Below, one piece after another: positions 1,538-61,570 of a DNA stretch of 64,000 nt; position 1 is the first letter of the stretch, and every line of letters begins with the position of its first letter. The notes below the pieces were generated by a model. It did no database searches. It was not told the origin of the DNA and was given only the letters and a program-made list of their open reading frames with translations. The stretch is from Naegleria gruberi. Taxonomy: Eukaryota. Position numbers and translations under genes: made by a program. The DNA lies in the NCBI GenBank assembly GCA_000004985.1, contig GG738858.1; one strand, 5' to 3'.

Positions 1538-2848
1538 TTACAATTTGTGCATATCATGCTCAAGGATATGCATCACAGTTTCAAGTATTGTTTGATCCAA
1601 ATCTGTAAACTCCAATCCATATTTGCCTTTAACATAATTATTCGAAAAATGTAATTCCTTCCCAACCATTCCTCTCAATAAATCATATTGAGGTTTTGGT
1701 CCTGTTAAGTAAGCTCCTAACAATAGGATTTTATCTCCGATTGTATTTTCTAAAAATGGTATCTGAGTGGGAAGTTTCAGCTTCTTTTTTTCAAGAATTT
1801 GAAGAGCTTGTGGATATTTTGATATGGCCTGACAAATATCTCTTGTGCAAATTGTGTTATTGTGAACAATGACACGTTCTTGATTTGATGCCAAGTAATC
1901 ATGATCTATGTAAAATCCATTTGATTGATCATTTACGGGTTTTGATGTTTTTTCCATGACTAGACAATGAGCTAGTGCAACATCTCTCACATCGACAGAT
2001 GGACAGAATAATCTGACATGTGCTGGTATATCTACAATACTTGAAATAATTGGTTGCATTCCAATATTCTTTCTAATTCCTATTGATGGTCCAAACATGG
2101 TCGAAGGAAGAACTGCTGCAATTTCCAATTGAGTATTTGAAAATTCTCCTTTCAATAATTCAAAAGCTTCCCTTTCCGACATTGTTTTACAATAGGCATA
2201 TGTACATTGAGTGAGAGATGCCTTATCATTCCATTCTGCTTCATCAAAGTAATGCCAACTCTTTGATTTATAATCCCAAAGAGCATCTGTTGATACTGCT
2301 GTAATGGAGGATGTAAAAATCAATCTCTTCAATCTCCTTGAGTCATTTCTCTCGTTCTGCTCCTTTCTAATTTTTACACATTCTCTCACTACATTTTTCA
2401 CACCATTTACAATTGGATCAAAGAGCTCTGATTTTGGATCTGATGAATTTCTGGTGAGTGCATCATCAAGTGGACACGCAGTAGCAAACACTCCATCACA
2501 ATCCAAAAATGCATTGTAAAAACTTCCATCTTTTGCCAAATCTGCTTGAAAAAATTGCAAATTATCATCCAAACCCTCCTGACAAGCAGCCTTCTTTATA
2601 AATTCATAATTTTCCACCTTTCCCAAATTCCTCACTGTCAAATTAACTGCATGTCCACGTCGGAGAAGAGTCATTACTAGATGACTTCCTAAAAATCCCG
2701 AACCACCAATTACACAATATTTTCTTTTTGAATTTTCTTTCAATGGTAAAGAGGTTTCTTCCATGTTGTTTGTTGCCAATTCTTGTTGTTGATTAATAGT
2801 GGTGATGTGATGTTGTTGAGAATAATCTTCGGGATAGTTTGTTCCCAT
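1538..2848 (-). CDS. NAD(P)-dependent epimerase/dehydratase (extended SDR, cinnamoyl-CoA-reductase/3beta-HSD-like), single exon, 436 aa with a Q-rich N-terminus
   Basis: Rossmann motif YCVIGGSGFLGSHLV close to the N-terminus; length and motif order typical of extended SDRs; uninterrupted 1311-nt ORF. Confidence 0.65.
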   Translation of the reverse strand: MGTNYPEDYSQQHHITTINQQQELATNNMEETSLPLKENSKRKYCVIGGSGFLGSHLVMTLLRRGHAVNLTVRNLGKVENYEFIKKAACQEGLDDNLQFFQADLAKDGSFYNAFLDCDGVFATACPLDDALTRNSSDPKSELFDPIVNGVKNVVRECVKIRKEQNERNDSRRLKRLIFTSSITAVSTDALWDYKSKSWHYFDEAEWNDKASLTQCTYAYCKTMSEREAFELLKGEFSNTQLEIAAVLPSTMFGPSIGIRKNIGMQPIISSIVDIPAHVRLFCPSVDVRDVALAHCLVMEKTSKPVNDQSNGFYIDHDYLASNQERVIVHNNTICTRDICQAISKYPQALQILEKKKLKLPTQIPFLENTIGDKILLLGAYLTGPKPQYDLLRGMVGKELHFSNNYVKGKYGLEFTDLDQTILETVMHILEHDMHKL

Positions 2849-3402
2849 TTTTTTATTAAACCTTCATAATTCGGAGTGCACTTATGTTGTGTTGTAATAA
2901 AATTAATTTATTCTTCAATGTAGTGTTACAACATTTAAGGTTTTATTAAAATAATAAAAAAATATTTAAAAAATGATACAACATGATCAATACTTTCATT
3001 ATTTTGTGTTTCATTTGAATGGTTTATTTAAAGAATTTGAAATATTTTTAATATCTTTTAATTACAATAACATTAACTTATTAGAGGAAGTTGGAAATGA
3101 AAAATTTAGAGAACACAATTATGGCATTTTCAATATTGTTTTGGGGTTTCAAATAGAGCTTGGCATAGGCGAGGATCTAATTGTAGTTATTATGATTTAT
3201 TTAATGGGAATTCGAAGAAGTTATCTGCAGAAGATGAGCTAAGGTTTTGAGTTTTCTTGTTCTTTGGTGTTGGGGATATTGTGATAATTTTTGAGCATGG
3301 AAAACACCGAACCCATATTTTATTTATTATATTTAAGTTTACAATAATGTCTTAGAATTAAACACTACATTACATACGAGTGAGATGAAATACACTCGAT
3401 GA

Positions 3403-14190: not shown

Positions 14191-14590
14191 TTTTTTAATT
14201 TAACTATTTAAATTCAGTTCCTTGTCTATGCAGTGCGTTTATTTGTACAGACGAGAAAATTGTTCTTATTAGGTTTAAGAAAATACATAAAATATTTATT
14301 AAGTTACCCAATGGAACAGAAGAATATTGAGGTAATATAAATTGTAACAGTTCAACATTAAGTGTGCACATCATTAACAATTATAGAAAATTACAATAGT
14401 TACGCATCTGATGATGCTTTTGCGTTTCAGTCGAGCTGCGAACTAAGTGTTGTACTACACTTGCTGAGTTGGAGTGAAGGTTGATTCAATCAATGCAAAT
14501 TCATTCTTCAATAATTTCCCTCCAAAATTTACTCCCTTAACCGACCTTTCTTAGAAACAAACAAACGTTAAGTTTTAAAATATAAAAAAA

Positions 14591-15772
14591 ATGTATAGAG
14601 CAGAGCCTTCTCAAAATCATCTCTGTACCCGTGCAGTCAGAGAGAGGAGTTATAAAAAGCATAGGGATGCTTTAGCAACAATTAAACCTTCTATTGATAA
14701 TTCTTCTCCGAAGTCCTTCCCTCACTTGAAATCCAATTTGAAGAAGAAGCAATTGGAAAAGGGTACGTAATTTTAATAATTTACAGTGAGCGTTATTAAC
14801 AAGCATTGTTCATTATTTACAGAGAGAGGTGATCAAATAGGTAAAGACAATAGAATTCTTGTAGATAAGATGACAGAAATAATGGGAAAACACTACCTAG
14901 ACAATAAGAATAATAATCTCAAGTTTGTCGGTAGTCTTAATTCCGATAAACGAAGGAGGGATCTTAAAAAGATTACAGAGGAAAACTCTGCAATCCTTAA
15001 AAGAATTCAAACCAAACAACCTGTATACAACCATTTGAAGTGGGAACAAGAATGGAACAAATCCAGAAAGTGGATGAACGATAAAACAACTGCACTTCAA
15101 CCAATCAATCAAGGAGCTTACTATCCAATAAATACATCTGTAAGGAGGTCAAAGTCATTTGATGAGGACGATTTTAGTGATGAGGAACCAGAAACAGTTG
15201 AAGTTTATGAAGGTAATAACCAACAATTTGAAGAAGATTTCAATCCAAACGAGGACTTTGTTGACCAACCAAATGAAGGAGAACAAAGTAATTTAGAGAA
15301 AGAACCTGAAGAAACCAATCCTGCAGAAACTGAAGATTCTCAAGAATACGAAGCTTCTTTGGCCACTTTTGATTATGCAGACGAATCAAAGGTGGACTTG
15401 AATGAAACTATCGAGGAAACAAAACAAGAATCAAAACAAGAAACTACCACCACTACAGAAACCACTACTACTACCACAACAACTACAACCACCACAACCG
15501 AGGAAGTTAAAACTGAACGAATCTCTGGAAAGTATAAGGAAAAGTCTGGAAAGATTTGGGCTGTCACATCTTCCACTGCTTCAACATTTGAGTTGTTAAA
15601 TGAACAGGACGGAAGAAAGGCTGATGGTAAATATACTAAGGATTCCTCAGGAAATTATTCCATCACTTTTACTTTCCATGACCCTAGTGGTGACTCTATT
15701 TTGAACTCTGTAACATCAAACCTTAAAACTATTCCACTCAGTAATGAAGACGCCTTCACAAAAGAAGAATAA
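14591..15772 (+). CDS. CFAP97 (hemingway/KIAA1430) domain protein; exons 14591..14762 and 14823..15772
   Basis: Splicing (GTACGT donor, phase 1) gives ..FPHLKSNLKKKQLEK|ERGDQIGKDNRILVDKMTEIMGK, matching the CFAP97 consensus HL..K.KK.QLE.ER....RDNRILLEKM..IM. The acidic C-terminal half carries a 17-residue poly-Thr tract. Confidence 0.6.
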
Positions 15773-34771: not shown

Positions 34772-35752
34772 ATGAAACAAGTTATATTGGGCTTTGATGA
34801 TTCTGTAAAAATAGGTGTAGCCAACTATTCAGTCAATGATACATCAAGCACTGGTTGCACTGTATTCTTCTTTCCGAATCAACAATCAACATGTGTTGTT
34901 GATGTTAGAGGAGGAAGTCCAGGGTTATTTCATGTCTCGGATGGCTATCTGGATGCTATTTGTCTTTCAGGTGGATCTTTATTTGGCTTACAGACAATTC
35001 ATGGAGTTATGGCTGGAATTTCAGAACTGAGATCAAATCCGTGCATGTGGAATCAAATACCAATTGTGAAGGGAGCTATTATTTATGACTTTAAATTGGA
35101 TTCTTTTGATAAGTCTTTTAAAGAATTGGTTTTTCCTGACATTGCTTTGGGAAGAAAGGCATTCAATTGTGTTACAACTAATTCATTTCCTGTTGGATTG
35201 GTGGGCGCTGGAAGTGGAGCAAGAGCAGGTAAAATGTCTGTAATATATGATCTAACAACCAAAGATGATAATTTGTATGCACTTCCAGAACCTTCAGGTC
35301 AAGGAGGCGCCTTTGGATATTATGAATGTAAGGGAGTTCAAGTGAAAATTGGAATATTTTCAGTATTGAATCCAGTTGGTTGTATATTCAATAAGAAACA
35401 AGAATGTGTTCTTGGACATAGGAGCCAAACCATTAAAGAAAAGAGATATGCAACTGAGGAGCTTATTGACATGAATTCAACAGAAAGGAAGGAACAAACC
35501 ACAACAAGTAATACCACACTTACAGTTCTAATCACCAACGTTACAATCTCTGATCAATTAAAAAGACAATTGGCTAAACAATTACACTCTGAAATGAGTA
35601 CTTTCATTCGACCTTTCAATACCCCTGATGATGGCGACACATTCTTCTTTGTTTCTACCAATGAGTTGAGTGAAAATCATTTCAGATACATTGACTTTAC
35701 TTCATTGGCTTCAAAATTATTACCTGATGCCATTCTCAGTATTATTGAATAA
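34772..35752 (+). CDS. Peptidase S58 (DmpA/BapA L-aminopeptidase D-Ala-esterase/amidase) family protein, single exon
   Basis: CVVDVRGGSPGLFHVSDG..., internal GAGSGARAG self-processing-like site, overall 326-aa DmpA architecture; a predominantly bacterial family. Confidence 0.65.
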   Translation: MKQVILGFDDSVKIGVANYSVNDTSSTGCTVFFFPNQQSTCVVDVRGGSPGLFHVSDGYLDAICLSGGSLFGLQTIHGVMAGISELRSNPCMWNQIPIVKGAIIYDFKLDSFDKSFKELVFPDIALGRKAFNCVTTNSFPVGLVGAGSGARAGKMSVIYDLTTKDDNLYALPEPSGQGGAFGYYECKGVQVKIGIFSVLNPVGCIFNKKQECVLGHRSQTIKEKRYATEELIDMNSTERKEQTTTSNTTLTVLITNVTISDQLKRQLAKQLHSEMSTFIRPFNTPDDGDTFFFVSTNELSENHFRYIDFTSLASKLLPDAILSIIE

Positions 35753-49184: not shown

Positions 49185-51617
49185 ATGAAAGCCAACTTGA
49201 GTGTGATCAAGTTATCGGATGATTCACTCCAAACATCTACTCATCCACTTTCTAATATATTTAATGATAATGACACTAAATTCGAAACAAGTATATCCTG
49301 TAAACATGTTTATATTTATTTAAATATTAATGATGATAACTTTAAAATTGATAAAATTATTGTCAAGAATAATGGAGCCAATGTAATTGAAGTTTTCGGA
49401 TTGGAGAAAGGATCGTTTGATGATAGTAATGGATCATGTATTCTACCATCAAGTTCCATGTTAAAATTTCATGAAACAAAAAGTAGGACCAAACTTAATG
49501 AACTTTATGTTTTCGATAAGAAACAATTGAATCGTGCAGCTCTTGTGAGACAAGATGAAAAAGATTTTAAAGGATGGAAGAAACTTTCTGTTAAAATTAC
49601 ACAAACATTTGGTGATTATCCTTTCGGATTGCAATACTTTGCCCTTGAGAGTGAATCATCATCATCAGCAAAAACAGATGAATCGAACAAAATGTCTGAT
49701 GAATGTTCTACACCATTAATTATAAGAGGATCCACTTTGGATATTCCTTTCCTTTCCGATGATGATGAACCTATGATAAGTGGACAAGATCAATTAGAGG
49801 AAGCTAGAAAAATGGCAAAAACCAAATTGACCTTATCACCAGCATTGAATATTACTCCAGATCTTGGATCTTCTTCTTCAACACCTTCCAAACCTAAGAA
49901 AAGAACCTTACCAAGTGGTATTGCTGCTAAACCTCAAAAGACTCAAAAGAAGAATGATTTAAGTGATGACAGTGAAAAATCAGATAAGGAAACTAAAAAG
50001 AAAACTAAAAAGCCAGCAGCCAAGACAGACAAAAAACGACCAAAATTTAAATCTATTAGTGACGATGATGACGATAAGGCATCTGCCAGTGATAGCTCAT
50101 CTAAAAAGAAAAAGACAACTAAGAAAGCTGATGCTAAAAAGCCAACCAAAAGAAAAACAACCAAAAAGAAAAAGACATTGGACGATCCATCAGATACAGA
50201 CGATGAAGAAGAATTAATTGATAATGCAAGTGATGCTGATGAAAATGGAAATTTGGCAGGTTTTGTTGTCAGTAACAAAACAGTCATCAAAGATAATAAG
50301 AAACTTCAGGATGGTCCAGTTTGTACAAATAAGACTGATGTTTTACAAGGATGTATTATAGCTATTAGTGGTATTCAGAATCCAAAGAGAACAGAAATTA
50401 GAGAGGCTGCCATGGCTATTGGTGCAAAATATAGACCTCAATATACAGCTGACACTACTCACTTAATTGCTGCCTTTGTTGATGATAGAAATGAAAAGAG
50501 TAAGCAAGCAAAGAAAGCTGGTGCATTCATTGTAAATGCAGAATGGGTTTTTGATTGTGAAAAGAATTCCAGGAGAATGAATGAAAGTAAATATTCTATG
50601 CTGAAGGATGAAAGTGAAGACGAGATTGAAGGTTCTGATGAGGAATATCAATTATCTTCTTCAAGTGATGATCTATTGGGAGATGGTGAGGATAGAGAAT
50701 ATCGTCCAAAAAGAAAAAAGAGAAAGGTAGTAGAAAAGAAGACCAGATCTGTGAAAAAGGAAAGTGACGACGAAACTAATGATGATGGAAACGAAAGCGA
50801 TAAATCGCTAGGAAAAAGTAATAGCCAAAGTTTAGCTCCACCTCCAATTGTAAAATCAGAAAAGAAGGAAAATAGTCAAGTTAAATCCGAAGTAAATTCT
50901 GATGAACAGCAGGTAGTGGCTGATATTCCAATTAAGGTTGAAGAACTCAAAGTTAAGGAAGAAGAGAGCAAACCAATAGCTCAAGACTGTGCCATGGAAG
51001 ATGATATTCTTTCCTCGTCTGATGAACAAGAAGTTTTAAGATTGAAGAGTTTTTATGACAGTGGAAATTATTCGAAATCTTTTTCTGATTTTATTGTTGA
51101 GGATATATTTGCCTTAGCTTACCAAACAGCACAGGATGGAGAGCTTTTTGACTACTTTGACAAGTGGTCACTTAAAACACCAAGTCCAAAGTTTATTAGA
51201 ATGATTGCAAGATCATCCGTTGAAGGTCCAGAGGAAGTAGTCAAACAGTTGGATGAATGCAGAGATAATATTTTAAAATATATTGAGGTCAACTTTGCCT
51301 CTAAAAAACCTAAAACAGATGTAAAGATTGATGGACCTTCAAAAGCACTTCCATCCTTCTTTGCGGGGTGTGTATTCTTTATTGATAGGGCAGTCAAAGG
51401 CAAACAAGAACTCACAAGGTATATCATTTCTTACGGAGGTGAGATTGCGACCAACTTTGAGGAAAGGAAAAATGATATAACACATGTACTTGTAAGCTCT
51501 GAGTATGAGGGCAATATTGCATATAATGATAAGGTAGTAGTGGACTTTAAATTTGTTTTGCACAGTCATAAGAGACAGAGAAAATTGAATGAGGAAGCTT
51601 ATTCTGCTGATTATTAA
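49185..51617 (+). CDS. XRCC1: XRCC1 ortholog (DNA single-strand-break repair scaffold): XRCC1 N-terminal domain, K-rich linker, BRCT1, acidic linker, BRCT2; single exon, 810 aa
   Basis: BRCT1 GCIIAISGIQNPKRTEIREAAMAIGAKYRPQYTADTTHLIAAF...GAFIVNAEWVFDC matches human GVVVVLSGFQNPFRSELRDKALELGAKYRPDWTRDSTHLICAF...GRIVRKEWVLDC. BRCT2 FFAGCVFFIDRAVKGKQELTRYIISYGGEI matches FFQGKHFFLYGEFPGDERRKLIRYVTAFNGEL. Confidence 0.85.
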   Translation: MKANLSVIKLSDDSLQTSTHPLSNIFNDNDTKFETSISCKHVYIYLNINDDNFKIDKIIVKNNGANVIEVFGLEKGSFDDSNGSCILPSSSMLKFHETKSRTKLNELYVFDKKQLNRAALVRQDEKDFKGWKKLSVKITQTFGDYPFGLQYFALESESSSSAKTDESNKMSDECSTPLIIRGSTLDIPFLSDDDEPMISGQDQLEEARKMAKTKLTLSPALNITPDLGSSSSTPSKPKKRTLPSGIAAKPQKTQKKNDLSDDSEKSDKETKKKTKKPAAKTDKKRPKFKSISDDDDDKASASDSSSKKKKTTKKADAKKPTKRKTTKKKKTLDDPSDTDDEEELIDNASDADENGNLAGFVVSNKTVIKDNKKLQDGPVCTNKTDVLQGCIIAISGIQNPKRTEIREAAMAIGAKYRPQYTADTTHLIAAFVDDRNEKSKQAKKAGAFIVNAEWVFDCEKNSRRMNESKYSMLKDESEDEIEGSDEEYQLSSSSDDLLGDGEDREYRPKRKKRKVVEKKTRSVKKESDDETNDDGNESDKSLGKSNSQSLAPPPIVKSEKKENSQVKSEVNSDEQQVVADIPIKVEELKVKEEESKPIAQDCAMEDDILSSSDEQEVLRLKSFYDSGNYSKSFSDFIVEDIFALAYQTAQDGELFDYFDKWSLKTPSPKFIRMIARSSVEGPEEVVKQLDECRDNILKYIEVNFASKKPKTDVKIDGPSKALPSFFAGCVFFIDRAVKGKQELTRYIISYGGEIATNFEERKNDITHVLVSSEYEGNIAYNDKVVVDFKFVLHSHKRQRKLNEEAYSADY

Positions 51618-51626
51618 ATAAATAAT

Positions 51627-53300
51627 TTATGATCTTTCGAAAAGTAATCTTTGACCTCTGACCTTTTCATTAATTTCTCCTTCATCATAAACAAGAGCAC
51701 CATTAACGAAAGTCTTTTTGACTTTTGACTTGAATGTATGACCTTCAAATGGAGACCATCCACACTTGTACAAAATGTTACTCTTATCAACAGTCCATGG
51801 GTCATCTAAATCAACCAAAACCAGATCAGCCTTAAATCCCTTTCTAATAAAACCTCTCTTTTCAATTTGGAAAACAATGGCAGGATTGTGACACATCTTT
51901 TCCACAATCTTTTCCAAGCTAATTTTTCCTTGATGATAAAAATCGAGCATGGCAACTAGGCTGTGTTGAACAAGTGGACCACCAGATGCTGCTTTGAAGT
52001 AACTACTTGTCTTTTCACTGATTGTGTGAGGGGCGTGATCTGTAGCAATGACATCTAAACGATCATCCAATAGAGCTTTCCACAATCCTTCTCTATCTTG
52101 TTCAGTCTTTACAGATGGATTCCATTTAATAAATGCTCCCTTAGTTTCATAATCCTTATCACTGAACCACAAGTGGTGAATACAAACTTCAGATGTAATT
52201 CTCTTCTTTGCAAGAGGTGTTTCATTGTCGAATAAATGAGTTTCTCTTTCAGTGGAAATGTGGAAAATATGCAAACGAGTATTGTGCTTTTTAGCCAAAG
52301 AAACAGCATATGAGGATGAAAGATAACATGCTTCAGCACTTCTAATATCTGGATGGCATCTAATTGGAACATCTTCACCATACTTTTCCTTATGAATTTT
52401 AGAATTTTCACGAATTGTCTTTTCATCTTCACAGTGAGCAGCAATCAATAATTTAGTTTTAGAAAAGATATCATCCAATACCTTAGGATCATCCACTAAC
52501 ATATTTCCAGTACTACTTCCCAAGAATAACTTAATTCCAGCAACATTTCTACCATTGGTCTTTAAAATTTCATCCAAATTTGTCAAAGTACCTCCAAGCA
52601 TGAATGAATAATTAATTAGTGACGAATTCTGTGCAATTTGGAATTTTTGCTCTAATAATTCTTGTGTGGTAGTTTGAGGATTAGTATTTGGTTGTTCAAT
52701 AAATGTTGTGACACCTCCAGCAGCTGCAGCTCTAGATTCAGTAAAGATATTAGCTTTGTGAGTCAATCCAGGTTCTCGGAAGTGCACTTGATCATCAATT
52801 ACACCAGGAAGTAAATGTAAACCAGTTCCATTAATAAACTTATCATATTCTCGATCTGCCATAATATTACTCAATTTATCTTGGTCATTCTCTTGATGTA
52901 AAATCATTTTAATTTTTTCTCCTTCAATAAGTACTGATCCTAAGAACATTTCATTATCATTCACAATAGTAGCATTATAAATTAAAGTTTTAGTCCTATC
53001 TCTATTTGAAACACTATCCAATCTCATATATAATCTAACAAGAACAGCAATAACTACAAAGTACAATGGTACTTTGAGCCAAGCAGGTCTTTTGTCCTTT
53101 CTCCTTCTCGTTGTAGAAGTTGTTGTCGATTCCGAAGCATCTTCTCCCTTATTCCCCTGAGAACGTCTATTTTTCAATACATTGTCTGCAACAGTGGTGA
53201 AACTTGCCTTCTCATCCTTCTCGTCTCCAGTGTTGTTGGATGATGATGAGGTTATCTTCTTATCGGTCATTTTTTTCTTCTTTCTTTTCAAAACCTTCAT
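51627..53300 (-). CDS. Type-I dihydroorotase-like cyclic amidohydrolase (DHOase/allantoinase superfamily) with a ~140-aa N-terminal extension containing a basic region and a TM anchor; single exon
   Basis: VIDDQVHFREPGLTHKANIFTESRAAAAGGVTTFIEQPNT ... IAAHCEDE ... VIATDHAPHTISEK (bacterial PyrC-like ATDHAPH) ... TM AWLKVPLYFVVIAVLVRLYM. Confidence 0.7.
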   Translation of the reverse strand: MKVLKRKKKKMTDKKITSSSSNNTGDEKDEKASFTTVADNVLKNRRSQGNKGEDASESTTTSTTRRRKDKRPAWLKVPLYFVVIAVLVRLYMRLDSVSNRDRTKTLIYNATIVNDNEMFLGSVLIEGEKIKMILHQENDQDKLSNIMADREYDKFINGTGLHLLPGVIDDQVHFREPGLTHKANIFTESRAAAAGGVTTFIEQPNTNPQTTTQELLEQKFQIAQNSSLINYSFMLGGTLTNLDEILKTNGRNVAGIKLFLGSSTGNMLVDDPKVLDDIFSKTKLLIAAHCEDEKTIRENSKIHKEKYGEDVPIRCHPDIRSAEACYLSSSYAVSLAKKHNTRLHIFHISTERETHLFDNETPLAKKRITSEVCIHHLWFSDKDYETKGAFIKWNPSVKTEQDREGLWKALLDDRLDVIATDHAPHTISEKTSSYFKAASGGPLVQHSLVAMLDFYHQGKISLEKIVEKMCHNPAIVFQIEKRGFIRKGFKADLVLVDLDDPWTVDKSNILYKCGWSPFEGHTFKSKVKKTFVNGALVYDEGEINEKVRGQRLLFERS

Positions 53301-53422
53301 ACAAAATTTGAGTAAGCCTAGTAACCCTGACCAATTGAGTTGGTGGGTACTTGTAAAAAAGACATATTATTTCTTTATGGCTTGCAATATGAGGCATCTC
53401 TCAAAAGTTTAATTCTATAATA

Positions 53423-54214
53423 ATGAAAATTAAATTAAAATTGAAAAAAATGTTTCTTCTGGATGGAGTGCCTTCCATTGATCAATACAAGGAGGGTTTA
53501 CCGACTGGTTGTGAGGCCACAGCTGCTGCACAGGCTTTACAATATTTGGGAGTGAAAGTGAGTGCAATGCAAGTGGTGCAAATGCTCAAGAGAGAACCAT
53601 TCATGTTTTCTTTCGGAAATACAATTGGAAATGATGAAAATAAATTGAATAGATTTGGTGGAAATCCGAATAGAGCATTTGTTGGTGATCCATTGAGTGC
53701 ATCTGTTGGAATGGGGTAATTATTTGATGATATTTAAAGCTTAGGTATTTTACAATAATTATTCACATTGGAAAGAGTTTATGAAAAACCAGTGAGAGAG
53801 TTGGTGAATGGAATGTTTATTCCAATGATGATGAAAAGACCAATTGATGATAGACAAATTATTGGAGTTAAAGAATTGTCTCAATCATCGCTTGATTATA
53901 TACTTGATTATTTGGAAAGAACCAAAGTACCGATTGTTATTTGGACAACTCTGAAACAAAGAGAGCCATTCTTTGTGGAAGAAGAAGTGTGGTATGATTA
54001 TTTAGATAGAAATTGTATCATTAAATGGAAGAGTCCAGAACATTGTGTCACTTTGGTCGGATTCACAAATGAAAATGTCATTGTCAATGATCCAGATACA
54101 GGCAAACAAGAACATTATGATAGGAAGATATTCGAGAAGAGATTTATTGAGATGGGCTCCATGGCCTTCTCTTTTACAATTGATGAGGGAGATAAGTGTC
54201 TTAATGATTATTGA
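53423..54214 (+). CDS. Peptidase_C39-like (YvpB/BtrH-type) cysteine peptidase domain protein; exons 53423..53715 and 53776..54214
   Basis: LLDGVPSIDQYKEGLPTGCEATAAAQALQYLG (bacterial consensus LDVP.I.Q....GCE.TS.AM.L.Y.G, catalytic Cys), downstream HCVTLVGF (His) and VIVNDPD (Asp). GTAATT donor, phase-2 intron of 60 nt gives ..SVGMG|VYEKPV.. Confidence 0.6.
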
Positions 54215-54395: not shown

Positions 54396-55553
54396 ATGTC
54401 TCTAAACAAAAAGAATGTTTCCTATCCGGTAGGCAACAGATCACTATCAGCTTTAGCCTCTAATCGTAAATTTTTCGGAAAACATCTTGATGAGAATGGA
54501 AATATGCCATCAGCTGGGGCAAAAACTAGGCCGAGAGATCTTAATGATACGCTGTACAGAACAAATCCCAACCTTAAAAAGAGTGATTTTTCTGCAGAAA
54601 AGATACAAAAACTTCAAATCAGAAAGAGAGAATCTAGGATAACAGAACGACCAATACAAGAGGAATTGGAGCACAAAAAACAAGTTTCCGAGAAGTTTAG
54701 CTACTTTGTAAATACACGACCTTGCTTCTCTTATTCATTTCACCCTGACGTCAATGAATATGCCAAACAAAATGAGACAATTTTCTCAACAAGTATTGGA
54801 ATGAATTGGAAGATCAATGAAAAATCGAGGCATGAATTGGAAAATTCAAAACCAAAACATATCGAGGATTGTAGAAAAGAAAAGGAACTAGAGAGAATGT
54901 TTTACTTTAAATCACTTGACAAAGTACCTAAGAGAGATGAATCTGAACATCAGAATAAGGTGAAGATTGATAGATTTACCACATCTCCTGATAGGAAAGA
55001 AGTGGCGGCAAGAAAACAGTCAACTAGAGATAATTTATTACACCATAGATACTTACCTATCAATGGACCAACCAACGTAACATCAACCGAAGGCAGATTT
55101 AACGACTCCCTTAAACAATTCTTCCCTTTCGAACCAAAACTTAGATACGGTAAAACAGAGTTCAAAGACACTGATAATATTCATATACCAGAAGAAACGT
55201 CCCCTCTATTTTGTTCTGAAGCTGATAGATTAGTCAACAAAATAGTCGATGCAGATATATTCCAAAACGACGTGTATGCTGATTTAAGGAGGAAAAACAT
55301 GGCAATTACGAAATCAAGAGCAGATAGAAGAAGACAAAGCGAGCATGATGTGCGAGAGAATGCTCAGAAATTGGAAGATTTGAGTGAGCAGAAGAAACTA
55401 GCAAGGGAATCTGCCATTCGAACACTGAAAGAAAAGTACATTCAGGTTGTCCATGATAATGACCCAGCTCATGGGTATAACTTTTGTTCTGGTGAAAGAC
55501 ACGAACTAGTACAATCGAAAAATATTGGTTATCAAAGTTGTTTTCAAGAATAA
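54396..55553 (+). CDS. Hypothetical basic (K/R/E-rich) protein, 385 aa, single exon
   Basis: Long ORF with ATG in an A-rich context; no family recognised. Confidence 0.35.
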   Translation: MSLNKKNVSYPVGNRSLSALASNRKFFGKHLDENGNMPSAGAKTRPRDLNDTLYRTNPNLKKSDFSAEKIQKLQIRKRESRITERPIQEELEHKKQVSEKFSYFVNTRPCFSYSFHPDVNEYAKQNETIFSTSIGMNWKINEKSRHELENSKPKHIEDCRKEKELERMFYFKSLDKVPKRDESEHQNKVKIDRFTTSPDRKEVAARKQSTRDNLLHHRYLPINGPTNVTSTEGRFNDSLKQFFPFEPKLRYGKTEFKDTDNIHIPEETSPLFCSEADRLVNKIVDADIFQNDVYADLRRKNMAITKSRADRRRQSEHDVRENAQKLEDLSEQKKLARESAIRTLKEKYIQVVHDNDPAHGYNFCSGERHELVQSKNIGYQSCFQE

Positions 55554-57514: not shown

Positions 57515-60500
57515 ATGAGCAATCATCAACAAATAACAACCACAACGACAACCAATTTTACTTTACCACCACTCCCACCTTCATTAATTCCAGCCAGATA
57601 TGAATTTAAAATCACTGGACAATTTCCATCACAATTCAACAATATTCAATCACAATGCTATCATCCATCACAACAAGTTTTAATATTGGGAGGAAGTAAT
57701 GGCAATTTATATTTTGTTGGTGGTGATGCTCATTATTATATTACGTTATCGGATGAATATTCAATTGAAAATATTCAAAATGATGAACAATTTCCGATCA
57801 TTTATTGTCTTTGTAAAAATCATCAAAATTCAAAATCAATTTTAATATCCTATGATTATTTAAAGAAGCAAATTGTCAATCAAGTACATTTTAATGATCA
57901 TCAAAATGTAACAAGTATCAAATATTACAAAGGTTATTTATTAATAACAACAATTGAATTTAAAAATAATATTTATTATCCATATGTAAAGTACATGTCA
58001 ACAAGTAATTTCAAATTTATTCAATCAATCTCGTTATTACATCCAATTTTCAACGCTCCTAATATTATACCACCTTCTAATTTATTAATTAATTGTGTTG
58101 AACCTCATCCGACATATGATCATGTCATTTCAGTTGGTTATTCGAATGGTGAAACTGTTATTTACTATATTTATCATGTGCAGAATACTAACAATAATTC
58201 AATTTCAACAAATCTTAATTGTATTGTTATTCCTTCACAATTTTCAGTAACCAGTTTGAATTGGCATGCTCCGAATATTATAATTTGTGGATATTCAAAT
58301 GGTTCATTTACTTTATACGAAATTAATCATCCTCAATTTACATTTTCTCTCTATTATGAAATGAATATGTTGAAGGGATGTACAAATTTCATAACTTCTT
58401 ACAATCAATTCATCATTTTTGGATTAGGATCAGATACTACAAATGCAGATTCTGGAATATATTATTTGAAAATGAATTATGAAGTAAGAAATATTGAATT
58501 TATTAGACATGTATGGTGTGATCAGAAAAGTATTGAAAATATTACATTGTTAAAATCAGTCTTTGATAATCCAAATTCAAACTCTTTAATGGCTAGTGTG
58601 ATTTATGGAGAAAATAGAAATGTGCTTGTTTTGGATTTATTTGAAAAGATGATTTATCCACAAAAAGAACTTCAATTATTCAATTTGGAAAAGTATTCTG
58701 TACCAACCCCATTCTACTCTACAAAAGATTTGATTTGTAATAATAAGGAATTTATTGTACTGAAAACTTCTGGGATGGATCTCTCAAATTTGGTATATAA
58801 CACTGTTCTTAATAATTTCAATCAAGAACAGTACAGAAGGAATATGCTTGAGTATTATTTAAGACCTGTCAATAGATGGAATATACTTGGCATGAAATAT
58901 ACTCAATACAGAGTCGATATTAATGTCGATAAAGATAATTACATTTTGGTAAAGCTTTCAGATCAAGCTTTAGGTAGTGCAGTCGAGCTGTATTTGTGCA
59001 ATCCATATTTTAACGATATCAGATATATTTATACTATTGGTAATCAAGCAAGTTACAAAACTATGTGCAAATGGAGCGATAGTGTAATTATTTTGGCATC
59101 TATGGATGGAAATTTAGATTTCTTGCATATTCCATCAGCAACTATTTTTACACATGACATTACTGAAAAATCTCCAACTGTAGACAACTCGACTAATATT
59201 TCAGAAGCTCAGGGAAACAACTTCCAAGGCATAATTGCACAAGTGGCCAAGTATAACTTTAACGTTTTAAAATATTCTAATGATAATCCAATTATCCAGC
59301 TAGTTCCTATTCAAGTAATTAATCAACTTTTAATTGCTTACCAAGATGGTACTATTAAGATAGTATCACTCTCTACAAGTGACATTTCATCTGATCAAAT
59401 TATTGAAAATGAGTTTGACAAACATTTTGGAAGTATTATTTTTGAACTCAATCCATCAGACATGAAGAGTTCACATCTCTTTGTAAAATCCATTTTACCA
59501 AAGAAAGATGTAGTTTCACATATTGAATGCTCGATATATAGAGGTAATCTCTATGCTTTCCTTGGTTTTGCCAGTGGGAAGGTAATGCTCATTCAACTGT
59601 ACGATCTAGACTATATGACCAGAAATTATCACAAACTGAGCAAATATATTCATGAGGCAAGATGGAAAGATTTAGCTGATCACATATGTCCATTCGTTAT
59701 TTATGAAAATTCAGCAAACAATTTTGGAAAAGTTATTGATATTTACACTGTTAATGACATTTATAATGAATATAATATTTCTAAAATGGTAGATGAAAAG
59801 TATTTACCACCAATGTTGAGAAGTGAATACGTACCTAATTCAATTATTAACTCTCCAAATGGACCAATTTGTTATACTATTCATAGCACTTCACTGACGA
59901 GTGTATTTGGAACTGTGAAAAATAATATGATTGCCTTCCCAATCAATAGCGCAAGTCCTCTTACCATTTTATTTCAACTCAAGAAAACTCTTCCAATATC
60001 TTTTAATTTTGTTTTGGATATTCTGGATATCAAGTTTGAAACTCTATCAAAGATTGAAGAAATGGCCAACTATAGAATTATTGTCAATGGTGTTCCATTT
60101 GAGTTTGATATCAACTCGAATCATAAACTGGTAGATACAAGGCAAGTGGCTGTTGTTGTAACAGGTGAAGAGTATCGTGTTTATGTCAGAAATGAAACCA
60201 AGTTTGAATGTATTGGATCTGCACCATCAGGTTACAATTGTGTTCAGGATCAGTACATTACAAAGATGAATTTCAAAGTACTTTCACATAGTATCCATGA
60301 CAAAGAGGCCGAGTTTTATGAAAACCAGTTCATGAATAGTAAGATGTACAATTTATGTGATGTGGATTATTTGTGTGAATATATTGATAGTGTGGAAATT
60401 TACAATAATTTATCATTCTCAGATCTTCAAAATTCTAGAATCAAACAACCAAACATTGTTGGATACATTTCCAAAGCGGGAATTCCTCCTCTTGGTCAAT

Positions 60501-61570
60501 CCCATGGCTACACTCGATCAAAATTCATCATGGTTGTCAAGGAAAAGGGTATTGAAGAATATGTTCTCTCAAAACCAATGATTAGTTTGAAAAAGTTCTC
60601 CATTAAGGAAGGAAGAAAGTATAATCATAACAATATAATATCATCTAGCTCGTTAGAATACGTTCGTTCTAATAATCAAAGTTTGATATTATTGGACAAT
60701 CAAAATAATTTAATGATGTTTAGCTTGAAACCTTCATCTTCACAATCTAAATCCATAGACAAGATTTTCACACAAAAAATATCAAACCTCCCAATATCAA
60801 GTCAACCATTCAAAATATCAACCTTTGACAGTGGAAGAGACCTCCTCATTTATAATAATGACCATGTCGTTTATGGAACTTTGTTTGATTCAAAAAGCCA
60901 TAAGAGTACAGATATTTTGGAACCTATTATCTACACTATAGATTATAAGCCACCAACTAAAGCAATTGGAGAATCAATTGTTGGATTTTTCAAGAGCTTT
61001 ACCAAGTCTACACCTTCAGATAAGGATGTCAATGAAACATTTTGGAAGATTTGTACACAACTTCAGAGAGAAGATCTCAATCTTGTCAAACAATTGGTTG
61101 TGAATAATATTGTTCCTTCTCAACCTTCTAACAATTCAGATTTTGATGATAATGAAAAGACCATTATTTCATCCTTCCTCTCAAAAGAATTGGAGCTCAA
61201 GAACAAACCAATTGTAAAGCCACTTCCTCAACCAACTACCACAAGTAGTGCAACAAATGCATCAACCAGTAGTTCAAGTAACTTGAATAATCTCTATACT
61301 AGAACCAATAGAGAATTATTGTTCGGAGATGATGAGAACGATGATAATATCAAAATTACATCATCCAATTCATCTATGAAACGATCTGAACTAAACAACA
61401 GAATTGAGGAAACTAAACTTCAAATGAGTGAGAATTTAAGAAAACTAAATGAAAGAGAGGAAAAATTGAGAGAAATTAATGAAAAAACCAGTGAAATGTC
61501 TGGAATGGCCTCTTCATTTGCAGCCAATGCACAAAAATTGAATCAGAGATCAGGATTTTTCGGTTTTTAA
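57515..61570 (+). CDS. Tomosyn/Lgl/Sro7-family protein: ~1250-aa WD40/beta-propeller region plus a C-terminal R-SNARE-like coiled coil; single exon
   Basis: C-terminus RSELNNRIEETKLQMSENLRKLNEREEKLREINEKTSEMSGMASSFAANAQKLNQR resembles the synaptobrevin/tomosyn R-SNARE motif. N-terminus has WD-like GxSNGxxxxY repeats. Confidence 0.65.
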   Translation: MSNHQQITTTTTTNFTLPPLPPSLIPARYEFKITGQFPSQFNNIQSQCYHPSQQVLILGGSNGNLYFVGGDAHYYITLSDEYSIENIQNDEQFPIIYCLCKNHQNSKSILISYDYLKKQIVNQVHFNDHQNVTSIKYYKGYLLITTIEFKNNIYYPYVKYMSTSNFKFIQSISLLHPIFNAPNIIPPSNLLINCVEPHPTYDHVISVGYSNGETVIYYIYHVQNTNNNSISTNLNCIVIPSQFSVTSLNWHAPNIIICGYSNGSFTLYEINHPQFTFSLYYEMNMLKGCTNFITSYNQFIIFGLGSDTTNADSGIYYLKMNYEVRNIEFIRHVWCDQKSIENITLLKSVFDNPNSNSLMASVIYGENRNVLVLDLFEKMIYPQKELQLFNLEKYSVPTPFYSTKDLICNNKEFIVLKTSGMDLSNLVYNTVLNNFNQEQYRRNMLEYYLRPVNRWNILGMKYTQYRVDINVDKDNYILVKLSDQALGSAVELYLCNPYFNDIRYIYTIGNQASYKTMCKWSDSVIILASMDGNLDFLHIPSATIFTHDITEKSPTVDNSTNISEAQGNNFQGIIAQVAKYNFNVLKYSNDNPIIQLVPIQVINQLLIAYQDGTIKIVSLSTSDISSDQIIENEFDKHFGSIIFELNPSDMKSSHLFVKSILPKKDVVSHIECSIYRGNLYAFLGFASGKVMLIQLYDLDYMTRNYHKLSKYIHEARWKDLADHICPFVIYENSANNFGKVIDIYTVNDIYNEYNISKMVDEKYLPPMLRSEYVPNSIINSPNGPICYTIHSTSLTSVFGTVKNNMIAFPINSASPLTILFQLKKTLPISFNFVLDILDIKFETLSKIEEMANYRIIVNGVPFEFDINSNHKLVDTRQVAVVVTGEEYRVYVRNETKFECIGSAPSGYNCVQDQYITKMNFKVLSHSIHDKEAEFYENQFMNSKMYNLCDVDYLCEYIDSVEIYNNLSFSDLQNSRIKQPNIVGYISKAGIPPLGQSHGYTRSKFIMVVKEKGIEEYVLSKPMISLKKFSIKEGRKYNHNNIISSSSLEYVRSNNQSLILLDNQNNLMMFSLKPSSSQSKSIDKIFTQKISNLPISSQPFKISTFDSGRDLLIYNNDHVVYGTLFDSKSHKSTDILEPIIYTIDYKPPTKAIGESIVGFFKSFTKSTPSDKDVNETFWKICTQLQREDLNLVKQLVVNNIVPSQPSNNSDFDDNEKTIISSFLSKELELKNKPIVKPLPQPTTTSSATNASTSSSSNLNNLYTRTNRELLFGDDENDDNIKITSSNSSMKRSELNNRIEETKLQMSENLRKLNEREEKLREINEKTSEMSGMASSFAANAQKLNQRSGFFGF

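What the first reader, a model, noticed from the sequence alone, without database searches (positions are those of the whole stretch)
53423..54214. Bacterial-type Peptidase_C39-like (YvpB/BtrH) gene carrying a spliceosomal intron: probable ancient horizontal acquisition
The N-terminal LDGVPSIDQYKEG..GCEATAAAQALQYLG block, followed by His (HCVTLVGF) and Asp (VNDPD), is the C39-like cysteine-peptidase triad arrangement. That arrangement is almost exclusively bacterial.

Here the gene has eukaryotic codon usage, an AT-rich promoter and a 60-nt GTAATT..AG intron in phase 2. It is therefore not contamination but a domesticated transferred gene.

Two further bacterial-type enzymes lie in the same window: DmpA/S58 at 34772 and type-I DHOase-like at 51627.
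Basis: partly seen in the sequence, partly recalled or inferred. Interest (0 to 1): 0.55.

Follow-up and report, generated by a model that had tools for sequence, protein, structure and literature searches.

The report
Bacterial-type cysteine peptidase gene in Naegleria
This is a real, intron-containing Naegleria gruberi gene for a papain-fold cysteine hydrolase that an ancestor of Naegleria and Willaertia took from soil Firmicutes-type bacteria; it is a tidy but ordinary case of gene transfer, the public annotation misses its catalytic first exon, and relatives also occur in Dictyostelium and other amoebae.

Summary
The window is Naegleria gruberi NEG-M nuclear DNA. Positions 53423-54214 (+) hold a two-exon gene: exon 1 53423-53715, a 60-nt GT..AG phase-2 intron 53716-53775, and exon 2 53776-54214.

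Orthologs exist in N. fowleri, N. lovaniensis and Willaertia magna. They form one clade with 97-99% NJ bootstrap. The three Naegleria species share the intron at the identical site and phase; Willaertia and all bacterial relatives lack it. All 80 best prokaryotic relatives are Bacillota such as Tumebacillus, Lentibacillus, Virgibacillus and Clostridia.

Composition matches the neighbouring genes, and substitutions point to purifying selection. An ancient transfer followed by intron gain is well supported.

Two corrections apply:
- The RefSeq model XP_002679234.1 (133 aa) covers only part of exon 2 and lacks the catalytic Cys.
- The subfamily is not purely bacterial. Dictyostelium, Stenamoeba, Gocevia and several unnamed protist contigs carry it. 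How many transfers occurred is unresolved.

The substrate is unknown. It is most likely a cytosolic amide or peptide hydrolase. Interest is modest.

The parts
53301..53422 (.). 122-bp divergent intergenic spacer between the C39-like gene (+) and the amidohydrolase gene (-). It presumably holds both promoters.
   Evidence: ORF map. GC is 32%, not different from the window average. There is no room for an upstream signal-peptide exon. An in-frame TGA lies 11 codons upstream of the ATG.
53423..53715 (+). Exon 1 (293 nt), encoding residues 1-97 plus two bases of Gly98. It holds oxyanion Gln21 (53483-53485) and nucleophile Cys30 (53510-53512). It is absent from the RefSeq model XP_002679234.1.
   Evidence: It is homologous to the N-terminal half of N. 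lovaniensis, N. fowleri, Willaertia and bacterial proteins.
53716..53775 (+). Spliceosomal intron: 60 nt, GTAATT...AAAG, phase 2, 21.7% GC. It contains in-frame stops.
   Evidence: Removing it restores a continuous match to PF13529 and 3erv. The same site and phase occur in N. lovaniensis (134 nt) and N. fowleri (163 nt). It is absent from Willaertia, Dictyostelium and bacteria.
53776..54214 (+). Exon 2 (439 nt including the TGA stop), encoding the last base of Gly98 through Tyr243. It holds His187 (54041-54043) and Asp203 (54089-54091).
   Evidence: The RefSeq/GenBank model EFC46490.1 / XP_002679234.1 (133 aa) begins at Met111 inside this exon.

Best explanation
Positions 53423-54214 hold a functional two-exon nuclear gene of Naegleria gruberi. 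It encodes a 243-aa single-domain papain-fold hydrolase with no signal peptide. The protein belongs to the YvpB/3erv branch of Peptidase_C39_2.

**Shown here**
- The domain assignment, the fold and an intact Gln-Cys-His-Asp catalytic set.
- Orthologs in N. fowleri, N. lovaniensis and Willaertia magna that are monophyletic and follow the species tree.
- An intron shared by the three Naegleria species and absent elsewhere.
- Nearest prokaryotic relatives that are all Bacillota.
- Host-like base composition and purifying selection.

**Inferred history**
A Bacillota gene of the short, signal-less Tumebacillus-like type entered the genome of a bacterivorous heterolobosean ancestor before Naegleria and Willaertia diverged. 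It was ameliorated to host composition. It acquired a spliceosomal intron on the Naegleria stem, and it has since been inherited vertically.

**Inferred mechanism**
Cys30 is activated by His187, which Asp203 orients. Cys30 attacks an amide carbonyl, and Gln21 helps form the oxyanion hole. This gives a thioester acyl-enzyme that water resolves.

The substrate is not known. Three facts bear on it:
- Many bacterial family members are fused to cell-wall-binding repeats.
- The domain serves as a catalytic domain of Gram-positive phage endolysins.
- The eukaryotic carriers are all bacterivorous amoebae.

The most likely substrate class is therefore peptide or isopeptide bonds of bacterial cell-wall origin, such as muropeptides. 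In Naegleria these would be handled in the cytosol.
For: **Identity and fold**
- PF13529 scores 70.3 bits and E 3.2e-19.
- The AF2 model has pLDDT 92.9 and pTM 0.90.
- Q21, C30, H187 and D203 are invariant in 70 sequences.

**Host and context**
- Flanking ORFs equal N. gruberi XP_002679235.1 and XP_002679237.1.
- GC3 is host-like.

**Orthologs and intron**
- Orthologs are N. lovaniensis P0002, Willaertia P0003 and N. fowleri P0117.
- The intron site and phase are identical in all three Naegleria species.

**Phylogeny**
- Heterolobosea bootstrap support is 97-99, Naegleria 92-98, and N. fowleri + N. lovaniensis 100.
- The best 80 loci from GTDB genomes are all Bacillota.
- The motifs SPEHC and GGNPxRAF and the 13-residue W..W loop are shared with Tumebacillus-type sequences.

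**Selection**
- dN/dS is 0.36 between N. fowleri and N. lovaniensis.
- There are 6 synonymous changes against 1 non-synonymous between the window and a 98.8%-identical strain contig.

**Localisation**
- There is no N-terminal hydrophobic segment in Naegleria, Dictyostelium, Stenamoeba or Tumebacillus-type proteins.

**Cell-wall link**
- Bacterial homologs are fused to CW_binding_1, choline-binding or SLH repeats.
- Peptidase_C39_2 is listed among the enzymatically active domains of endolysins of Gram-positive phages (PMC8223927).
- The structural neighbours include the pseudomurein endoisopeptidase PeiR.
Against: - There is no transcript evidence for N. gruberi. The spliced 243-aa protein is not in the 15-billion-protein collection.
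- No member of the closest subfamily (YvpB, 3erv) has a demonstrated activity.
- The only biochemically characterised enzymes that surfaced as relatives are the double-glycine leader peptidases and the ligase CtaG. The chain description of CtaG names a 'Butirosin biosynthesis protein H N-terminal domain'.
- The lack of a signal peptide fits poorly with digestion inside phagosomes. Only Willaertia has a hydrophobic N-terminus.
- No conserved bacterial gene neighbourhood supports any substrate.
- The bacterial sister group of the heterolobosean clade is unresolved. Only 57% of 200 NJ replicates place it inside the Tumebacillus-type plus amoebozoan set.
- Only distance trees could be built.
Confidence: 0.8

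Rival explanations
1. There was one bacterium-to-eukaryote transfer followed by amoeba-to-amoeba spread, or the reverse order of recipients. On this view the heterolobosean gene came from an amoebozoan, or the other way round, rather than directly from a bacterium.
For: - Homologs occur in Dictyostelium, Stenamoeba, Gocevia and unnamed protist contigs.
- In the first NJ tree the smallest clade enclosing Heterolobosea added exactly six eukaryote-like sequences.
- In 48-60% of replicates the nearest small clade contained amoebozoan-like sequences.
Against: - An all-eukaryote clade gets only 1-2% bootstrap.
- Amoebozoan-type sequences are 45-50% identical to Tumebacillus-type proteins but only 30-39% identical to heterolobosean ones.
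- Heterolobosea keep the bacterial 'VPxIxQ' N-terminal motif, which the amoebozoan-type set has lost.
- Long heterolobosean branches make attraction artefacts likely.
Confidence: 0.2
2. The protein is not a hydrolase. It would be a papain-like acyltransferase or ligase like BtrH or CtaG, passing an acyl group from a thioester donor to an amine.
For: - CtaG is a Cys-His-Asp 'papain-like ligase' that forms amide bonds (PMC12865890). It appears among the structural hits.
- BtrH gives its name to the CtaG chain description.
- The cytosolic location suits a small-molecule substrate.
Against: - No carrier-protein or biosynthetic-cluster context exists in bacteria or around the Naegleria, Willaertia or Dictyostelium genes.
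Confidence: 0.12
3. The gene is an ancient eukaryotic gene inherited vertically and lost from most lineages.
For: It is present in two distant supergroups, Discoba and Amoebozoa.
Against: - Named eukaryotic hits are only amoebae. No animal, fungal or plant protein appeared in three searches of 5.8 billion proteins.
- Eukaryotes are not monophyletic.
- Amoebozoan-type sequences sit beside one narrow Bacillota group.
Confidence: 0.04
4. The region is bacterial contamination of the assembly, or a decaying pseudogene.
For: The public model is truncated to 133 aa. On its own, that could suggest a broken gene.
Against: - There is a spliceosomal intron conserved in three species.
- The gene lies on a 782-kb eukaryotic scaffold.
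- GC3 is host-like.
- The catalytic residues are intact.
- dN/dS is below 1, with 6 synonymous to 1 non-synonymous change between strains.
- A second, independent 98.8%-identical contig exists.
Confidence: 0.02

Closest known systems
PDB 3erv, 'putative C39-like peptidase' of Bacillus anthracis, and B. subtilis YvpB (COG-style name 'uncharacterized protein YvpB')
   Same: - Same Pfam family, PF13529.
- Same Gln/Cys/His/Asp positions and the same single-domain size.
   Different: - The Naegleria protein has eukaryote-specific insertions: FIPMMMKRPID after helix 101-116, and one extra residue before LPTGC.
- Its gene carries an intron.
- Neither 3erv nor YvpB has a known substrate, so the comparison gives the fold but not the function.
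Orthologs already in databases: N. fowleri XP_044561302.1 (FDP41_004488), N. lovaniensis C9374_008647 and Willaertia magna ABK040_014474
   Same: - 45-49% identity to N. lovaniensis and Willaertia over 90% or more of the query, by BLASTP.
- Same clade.
- Same intron site in the two Naegleria species.
- The two Naegleria proteins are auto-named 'Peptidase C39-like domain-containing protein'.
   Different: - The N. gruberi public model lacks exon 1.
- N. fowleri and N. lovaniensis carry long low-complexity inserts and share a different neighbour, NatA auxiliary subunit.
- Willaertia is intronless and has a hydrophobic N-terminus.
Dictyostelium discoideum DDB_G0270242 (Q55C37) and the Stenamoeba and Gocevia transcripts
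   Same: - Same subfamily.
- No signal peptide.
- The Dictyostelium gene is embedded in a eukaryotic chromosome.
   Different: - They are closer to Tumebacillus-type bacteria than to Naegleria.
- They are intronless at the Naegleria site.
- Most of them have their own insertion after the catalytic helix.
- They are probably a separate acquisition.
Peptidase C39 (PF03412), the double-glycine bacteriocin leader peptidase domains of ABC exporters (ComA, PCAT1, LahT)
   Different: - The score is below the Pfam cut-off: 19.3 against 22 bits.
- There is no transporter fusion.
- The protein has about 100 extra residues.
Peptidase_C39_2 catalytic domains of Gram-positive phage endolysins and cell-wall-anchored bacterial homologs
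   Same: Same Pfam family (PMC8223927). Bacterial homologs carry CW_binding_1 or SLH repeats.
   Different: - The Naegleria protein has no wall-binding module and no secretion signal.
- Viral hits are only 24-28% identical.

Membership tests
Pfam PF13529 Peptidase_C39_2 (C39-like, YvpB/BtrH family) | Profile HMM match above the curated gathering score over the full domain | tested here: met
   70.3 bits against a cut-off of 24, E 3.2e-19, profile positions 2-142 of 143.
Pfam PF13529 Peptidase_C39_2 (C39-like, YvpB/BtrH family) | Catalytic Cys at the N-terminus of the first helix, preceded by an oxyanion Gln, then His and Asp in that order | tested here: met
   Q21, C30, H187 and D203 are invariant in 16- and 70-sequence alignments. 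The codons were verified.
Pfam PF13529 Peptidase_C39_2 (C39-like, YvpB/BtrH family) | Papain-like alpha+beta fold | tested here: met
Pfam PF13529 Peptidase_C39_2 (C39-like, YvpB/BtrH family) | Demonstrated hydrolytic (or acyl-transfer) activity | not testable with these tools
   This needs recombinant enzyme. No activity is published for the YvpB/3erv branch.
Peptidase C39 proper (PF03412, bacteriocin-processing) | HMM match above cut-off and fusion to, or association with, an ABC exporter | tested here: not met
   The score is 19.3 bits, below the cut-off of 22, and only over residues 172-222. It is a single-domain protein, and no transporter is adjacent.
BtrH/CtaG-type carrier-protein-dependent acyltransferases or ligases | Close structural or sequence similarity, and a biosynthetic cluster context with a carrier protein | tested here: not met
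Horizontally acquired bacterial gene in a eukaryote | Physically integrated in the host genome (host flanks, host composition, spliceosomal intron) | tested here: met
Horizontally acquired bacterial gene in a eukaryote | Recipient-clade sequences are monophyletic and nested among sequences of one bacterial group | tested here: met
   Heterolobosea bootstrap is 97-99. All 80 best GTDB loci are Bacillota. The exact sister group is unresolved, and only NJ trees were built.
Horizontally acquired bacterial gene in a eukaryote | Absent from most other eukaryotes | tested here: inconclusive
   The only named eukaryotic hits are heteroloboseans plus the Amoebozoa Dictyostelium, Stenamoeba and Gocevia. 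Several unnamed protist contigs also carry it. The word-seeded search can miss distant homologs.
Horizontally acquired bacterial gene in a eukaryote | Expressed and correctly spliced | not testable with these tools
   No N. gruberi transcript was found. The indirect evidence is purifying selection and a conserved intron.

The most novel reading that the evidence does not exclude
A short, cytosolic Tumebacillus-type C39-like hydrolase may have been captured independently, or passed around, by unrelated bacterivorous amoebae. The carriers are Heterolobosea, dictyostelids, discosean Amoebozoa and further unnamed protists. It would be retained because it lets a phagotroph process Gram-positive cell-wall peptides, or sense or detoxify muropeptides, in its cytosol. 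That would be a convergent 'amoeba toolkit' gene of bacterial origin with an as yet undescribed activity.
Probability: 0.2. Interest if true: 0.6.

Novelty: new member of a known kind. Interest (0 to 1): 0.33.

Why it matters
Bacterial genes in Naegleria are well documented, so the category is not new. Three concrete points follow from this case.

- **Annotation.** The N. gruberi reference model NAEGRDRAFT_65491 is truncated and lacks the catalytic cysteine. Orthology, peptidase and gene-transfer surveys based on that proteome will miss or misjudge the gene.
- **Intron gain.** The locus is a clean, datable example of intron gain after transfer. The intron is present in three Naegleria species and absent in Willaertia and in the donor group.
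- **Distribution.** The same uncharacterised Bacillota enzyme recurs in several unrelated amoebae, including the experimentally tractable Dictyostelium discoideum (DDB_G0270242). That gives a practical route to finding out what the YvpB/3erv branch of this large family does.

Tried and rejected
- **Bacterial gene neighbourhood.** I scanned 109 neighbouring ORFs from 28 Bacilli loci against Pfam. Nothing recurred beyond 5-6 loci of closely related Lentibacillus-type genomes, so no operon clue emerged.
- **Synteny.** tblastx of the N. lovaniensis, N. fowleri and Willaertia loci against the window found no conserved immediate neighbours. The only other match was a CFAP97-like gene, 6 kb away in Willaertia and 39 kb away here.
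- **Giant-virus route.** The viral-contig scan gave only five hits at 24-28% identity. A viral vector is therefore not supported, although contig L085 (kinesin plus capping enzyme) could not be assigned to an organism.
- **Metagenome scans.**
  - With heterolobosean-specific patterns the scan found nothing.
  - With general patterns it found nothing closer than 40% identity.
- **Literature.** Searches for the locus tags, YvpB, and C39 with Naegleria found no paper on this gene or on its activity.
- **Structure library.** The afdb50 library was unavailable, so taxonomic spread could not be read from AlphaFold DB.
- **Single eukaryotic clade.** This hypothesis was tested and not supported, with bootstrap 1-2%.
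- **Bacillaceae donor.** A Virgibacillus/Lentibacillus donor was considered because of the shared WTTLKQ and NDPDTGKQE motifs. The SPEHC and GGNPxRAF motifs and the loop length favour the Tumebacillus type instead. The question is left open.

Full report
**1. What is in the sequence**

Positions 53423-53719 form a 98-codon ORF starting MKIKLKLKKMFLLDGVPSIDQYKEGLPTGCEATAAAQALQYLG. Positions 53768-54214 form a second ORF in the same frame, ending ...EHCVTLVGFTNENVIVNDPDTGKQ...LNDY*.

Removing 53716-53775 joins the two halves through a split Gly98 codon (GG|A). The removed segment is 60 nt, GTAATT...GGAAAG, with 21.7% GC. The result is a 732-nt CDS and a 243-aa protein. Without splicing, the frame ends at a TAA at the second to fourth bases of the intron.

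**2. Family and fold**

- The spliced protein matches Pfam PF13529 (Peptidase_C39_2) end to end: 70.3 bits against a cut-off of 24, E 3.2e-19.
- It scores below the cut-off for the bacteriocin-type C39 family PF03412, and it matches no NCBIfam equivalog.
- The only solved relative found by sequence is 3erv, a structural-genomics 'putative C39-like peptidase' from Bacillus anthracis (E 7e-15). That alignment passes straight through the splice junction.
- An AlphaFold2 model built on a 70-sequence alignment is confident, with pLDDT 92.9 and pTM 0.90.
- Gln21, Cys30, His187 and Asp203 are invariant across the alignment.

**3. Whose genome**

The two ORFs downstream (54396-55553 and 57515-61570) are identical to N. 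gruberi XP_002679235.1 and XP_002679237.1, on a 782-kb scaffold. Upstream lie an amidohydrolase gene and an XRCC1/BRCT gene.

The locus itself is annotated as NAEGRDRAFT_65491 (EFC46490.1 / XP_002679234.1). That model has only 133 aa, starting at Met111 inside exon 2. It therefore lacks the catalytic cysteine.

A second contig (Logan ERR1078381) is 98.8% identical and has the same exon-intron layout.

**4. Relatives in eukaryotes**

The best full-length hits are N. lovaniensis (49% identity) and Willaertia magna (45%). N. fowleri XP_044561302.1 (343 aa) is hidden in a cluster whose representative is an exon-2 fragment.

N. lovaniensis and N. fowleri have GTAAGT...AG introns of 134 and 163 nt. 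They lie at exactly the same nucleotide and phase as N. gruberi...ATGGG|GT...AG|AGT.... The Willaertia gene is uninterrupted, as are the bacterial genes and the Dictyostelium gene. The simplest reading is an intron gain on the Naegleria stem after the transfer. Loss in Willaertia is the alternative.

A profile search seeded with metagenomic near-relatives found more eukaryotes:

- Dictyostelium discoideum DDB_G0270242 (Q55C37, on chromosome 1) and D. citrinum.
- Stenamoeba stenopodia and Gocevia fonbrunei (EukProt transcriptomes).

Several unnamed contigs are plainly eukaryotic by their neighbours or by their own intron:

- L085 carries a kinesin, a capping-enzyme/adenylate-kinase fusion and ankyrin/OGFOD2.
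- L086 has 27% GC, a poly-Q neighbour, and a GTAAAT..TTTTAG intron at a different site.
- L087 has 61% GC and a UBA/PARP-like neighbour.
- L176 encodes a 461-aa protein with KE-rich inserts.

**5. Relatives in bacteria and the trees**

A scan of one genome per GTDB species returned 220 confirmed loci. The best 80 are all Bacillota: Tumebacillus, Lentibacillus, Virgibacillus, Thalassobacillus, Oceanobacillus, Paenibacillus and many Clostridia MAGs. Identity ranges from 27 to 38%.

I built neighbour-joining trees with 186 and 218 sequences over 215 and 199 columns, using Kimura and Scoredist distances with 100-200 bootstraps. Support was as follows:

| Clade | Bootstrap support (%) |
|---|---|
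| Heterolobosea | 97-99 |
| Naegleria | 92-98 |
| N. fowleri + N. lovaniensis | 100 |
| All eukaryotes together | 1-2 |

- The gene tree mirrors the species tree.
- The amoebozoan-type sequences cluster beside the Tumebacillus-type proteins, to which they are 45-50% identical.
- The sister of the heterolobosean clade is unresolved. In 57% of 200 replicates it lies inside the Tumebacillus-type plus amoebozoan set.
- The signature motifs SPEHC and GGNPxRAF and a 13-residue W..W loop link Heterolobosea to the Tumebacillus type rather than to Bacillaceae. WTTLKQ and NDPDTGKQE point the other way.
- Only distance methods were available, and the heterolobosean branch is long. I therefore regard donor family and number of transfers as open.

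**6. Integration and selection**

The gene has 35.5% GC and GC3 0.30, inside the range of nine neighbouring genes (GC3 0.24-0.31).

| Comparison | Result |
|---|---|
| N. fowleri vs N. lovaniensis | dN/dS 0.36 |
| N. gruberi vs N. fowleri (near saturation) | dN/dS about 0.19 |
| N. gruberi vs Willaertia (near saturation) | dN/dS about 0.23 |
| The two N. gruberi-type sequences, within the CDS | 6 synonymous, 1 non-synonymous |

There is no paralog in the window.

**7. How it probably works**

The fold and the intact Gln/Cys/His/Asp set support a thiol hydrolase that acts through an acyl-enzyme intermediate. That much rests on established knowledge of clan CA enzymes applied to conserved residues.

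The substrate is an inference. The points in favour of a cell-wall peptide substrate are:

- Many bacterial homologs carry CW_binding_1, choline-binding or SLH repeats.
- Peptidase_C39_2 is catalogued as an enzymatically active endolysin domain exclusive to phages of Gram-positive hosts (PMC8223927).
- PeiR is among the structural neighbours.
- All eukaryotic carriers identified are bacterivorous amoebae.

The points against a phagosomal digestive role are:

- The Naegleria, Dictyostelium, Stenamoeba and Tumebacillus-type proteins have no hydrophobic N-terminus.
- The 122-bp spacer leaves no room for a hidden signal-peptide exon.
- Only Willaertia has a signal- or anchor-like segment.

A cytosolic role is therefore favoured, for example on muropeptides. 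An acyl-transfer role like that of CtaG or BtrH (PMC12865890) remains a minority alternative. The bacterial gene context is uninformative, and no publication gives an activity for YvpB or 3erv.

**8. Comparison with what is known, and verdict**

The protein is a bona fide member of PF13529. It is not a member of PF03412 or of the carrier-protein-dependent ligases.

As a phenomenon, it is a standard example of a bacterium-derived gene domesticated in a free-living amoeba. Its orthologs in N. fowleri, N. lovaniensis and D. discoideum are already auto-labelled 'Peptidase C39-like domain-containing protein'. I found no paper discussing the gene.

What is new is limited to three items: a corrected N. 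gruberi gene model, a datable post-transfer intron gain, and a patchy distribution restricted to amoebae.

- Novelty: new member of a known kind.
- Interest: 0.33.

Noticed in passing
window 53776-54214 (public model starts at Met111, about 53813): The RefSeq/GenBank model NAEGRDRAFT_65491 (XP_002679234.1, 133 aa) covers only part of exon 2. It omits exon 1, which holds the catalytic Cys30. The full 243-aa protein is absent from the 15-billion-protein collection.
   Followed up: yes
window 51627-53300 (-): A 557-aa Amidohydro_1 (dihydroorotase/allantoinase-type) ORF lies head-to-head with the C39-like gene, 122 bp away. It has a K/S-rich N-terminal extension and a hydrophobic segment (PLYFVVIAVLVRLYM). 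The exact protein is not in the collection, so the public model probably differs. Whether it is also of bacterial origin was not tested.
   Followed up: partly
Its origin was not examined. Together with the C39-like gene, it could hint at a set of enzymes for unusual, bacteria-derived peptides, but that is speculation.
   Followed up: partly
L002:6001-6762 (Willaertia magna): The Willaertia ortholog is intronless. Unlike the Naegleria proteins, it starts with a strongly hydrophobic segment (FIFPIIIAFFILIVTVIVV, mean Kyte-Doolittle 3.6) and has no internal Met before the domain. It may therefore be secreted or membrane-anchored.
   Followed up: partly
L085 (JGI metagenome 3300062347, 8.2 kb), gene at 2705-3361: This AT-rich, intron-poor contig carries a C39-like gene between an ankyrin/OGFOD2-like gene, an adenylate-kinase/mRNA-capping-enzyme fusion and a kinesin. 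It comes from an unidentified protist or possibly a giant virus. The source annotates the protein as bacterial 'YvpB'.
   Followed up: partly
L086:65-908 (Logan SRR28285696): A 27%-GC protist contig holds a C39-like gene with its own intron (GTAAAT...TTTTAG, after ...LNWLGFS). The site differs from the Naegleria intron site, so this is an independent intron in a transferred gene.
   Followed up: partly
window 14586-15051 vs L002:12296-12760: A CFAP97-like gene lies about 6 kb from the C39-like gene in Willaertia and about 39 kb from it in N. gruberi. This is the only trace of shared linkage. The immediate neighbours differ among N. gruberi, the N. fowleri/N. lovaniensis pair (which share a NatA auxiliary-subunit neighbour) and Willaertia.
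   Followed up: partly
window 53400-53403 and 53290-53363 vs L004: Against a 98.8%-identical strain contig, differences cluster in the short divergent promoter region. They include a 4-bp indel 20 bp upstream of the ATG. Within the CDS, changes are almost all synonymous.
   Followed up: partly
window 49185-51617 (+): An 810-aa ORF carries an XRCC1 N-terminal domain and two BRCT domains, a typical eukaryotic DNA-repair scaffold. The exact sequence is not in the protein collection, so the public model probably differs, perhaps through introns.
   Followed up: no
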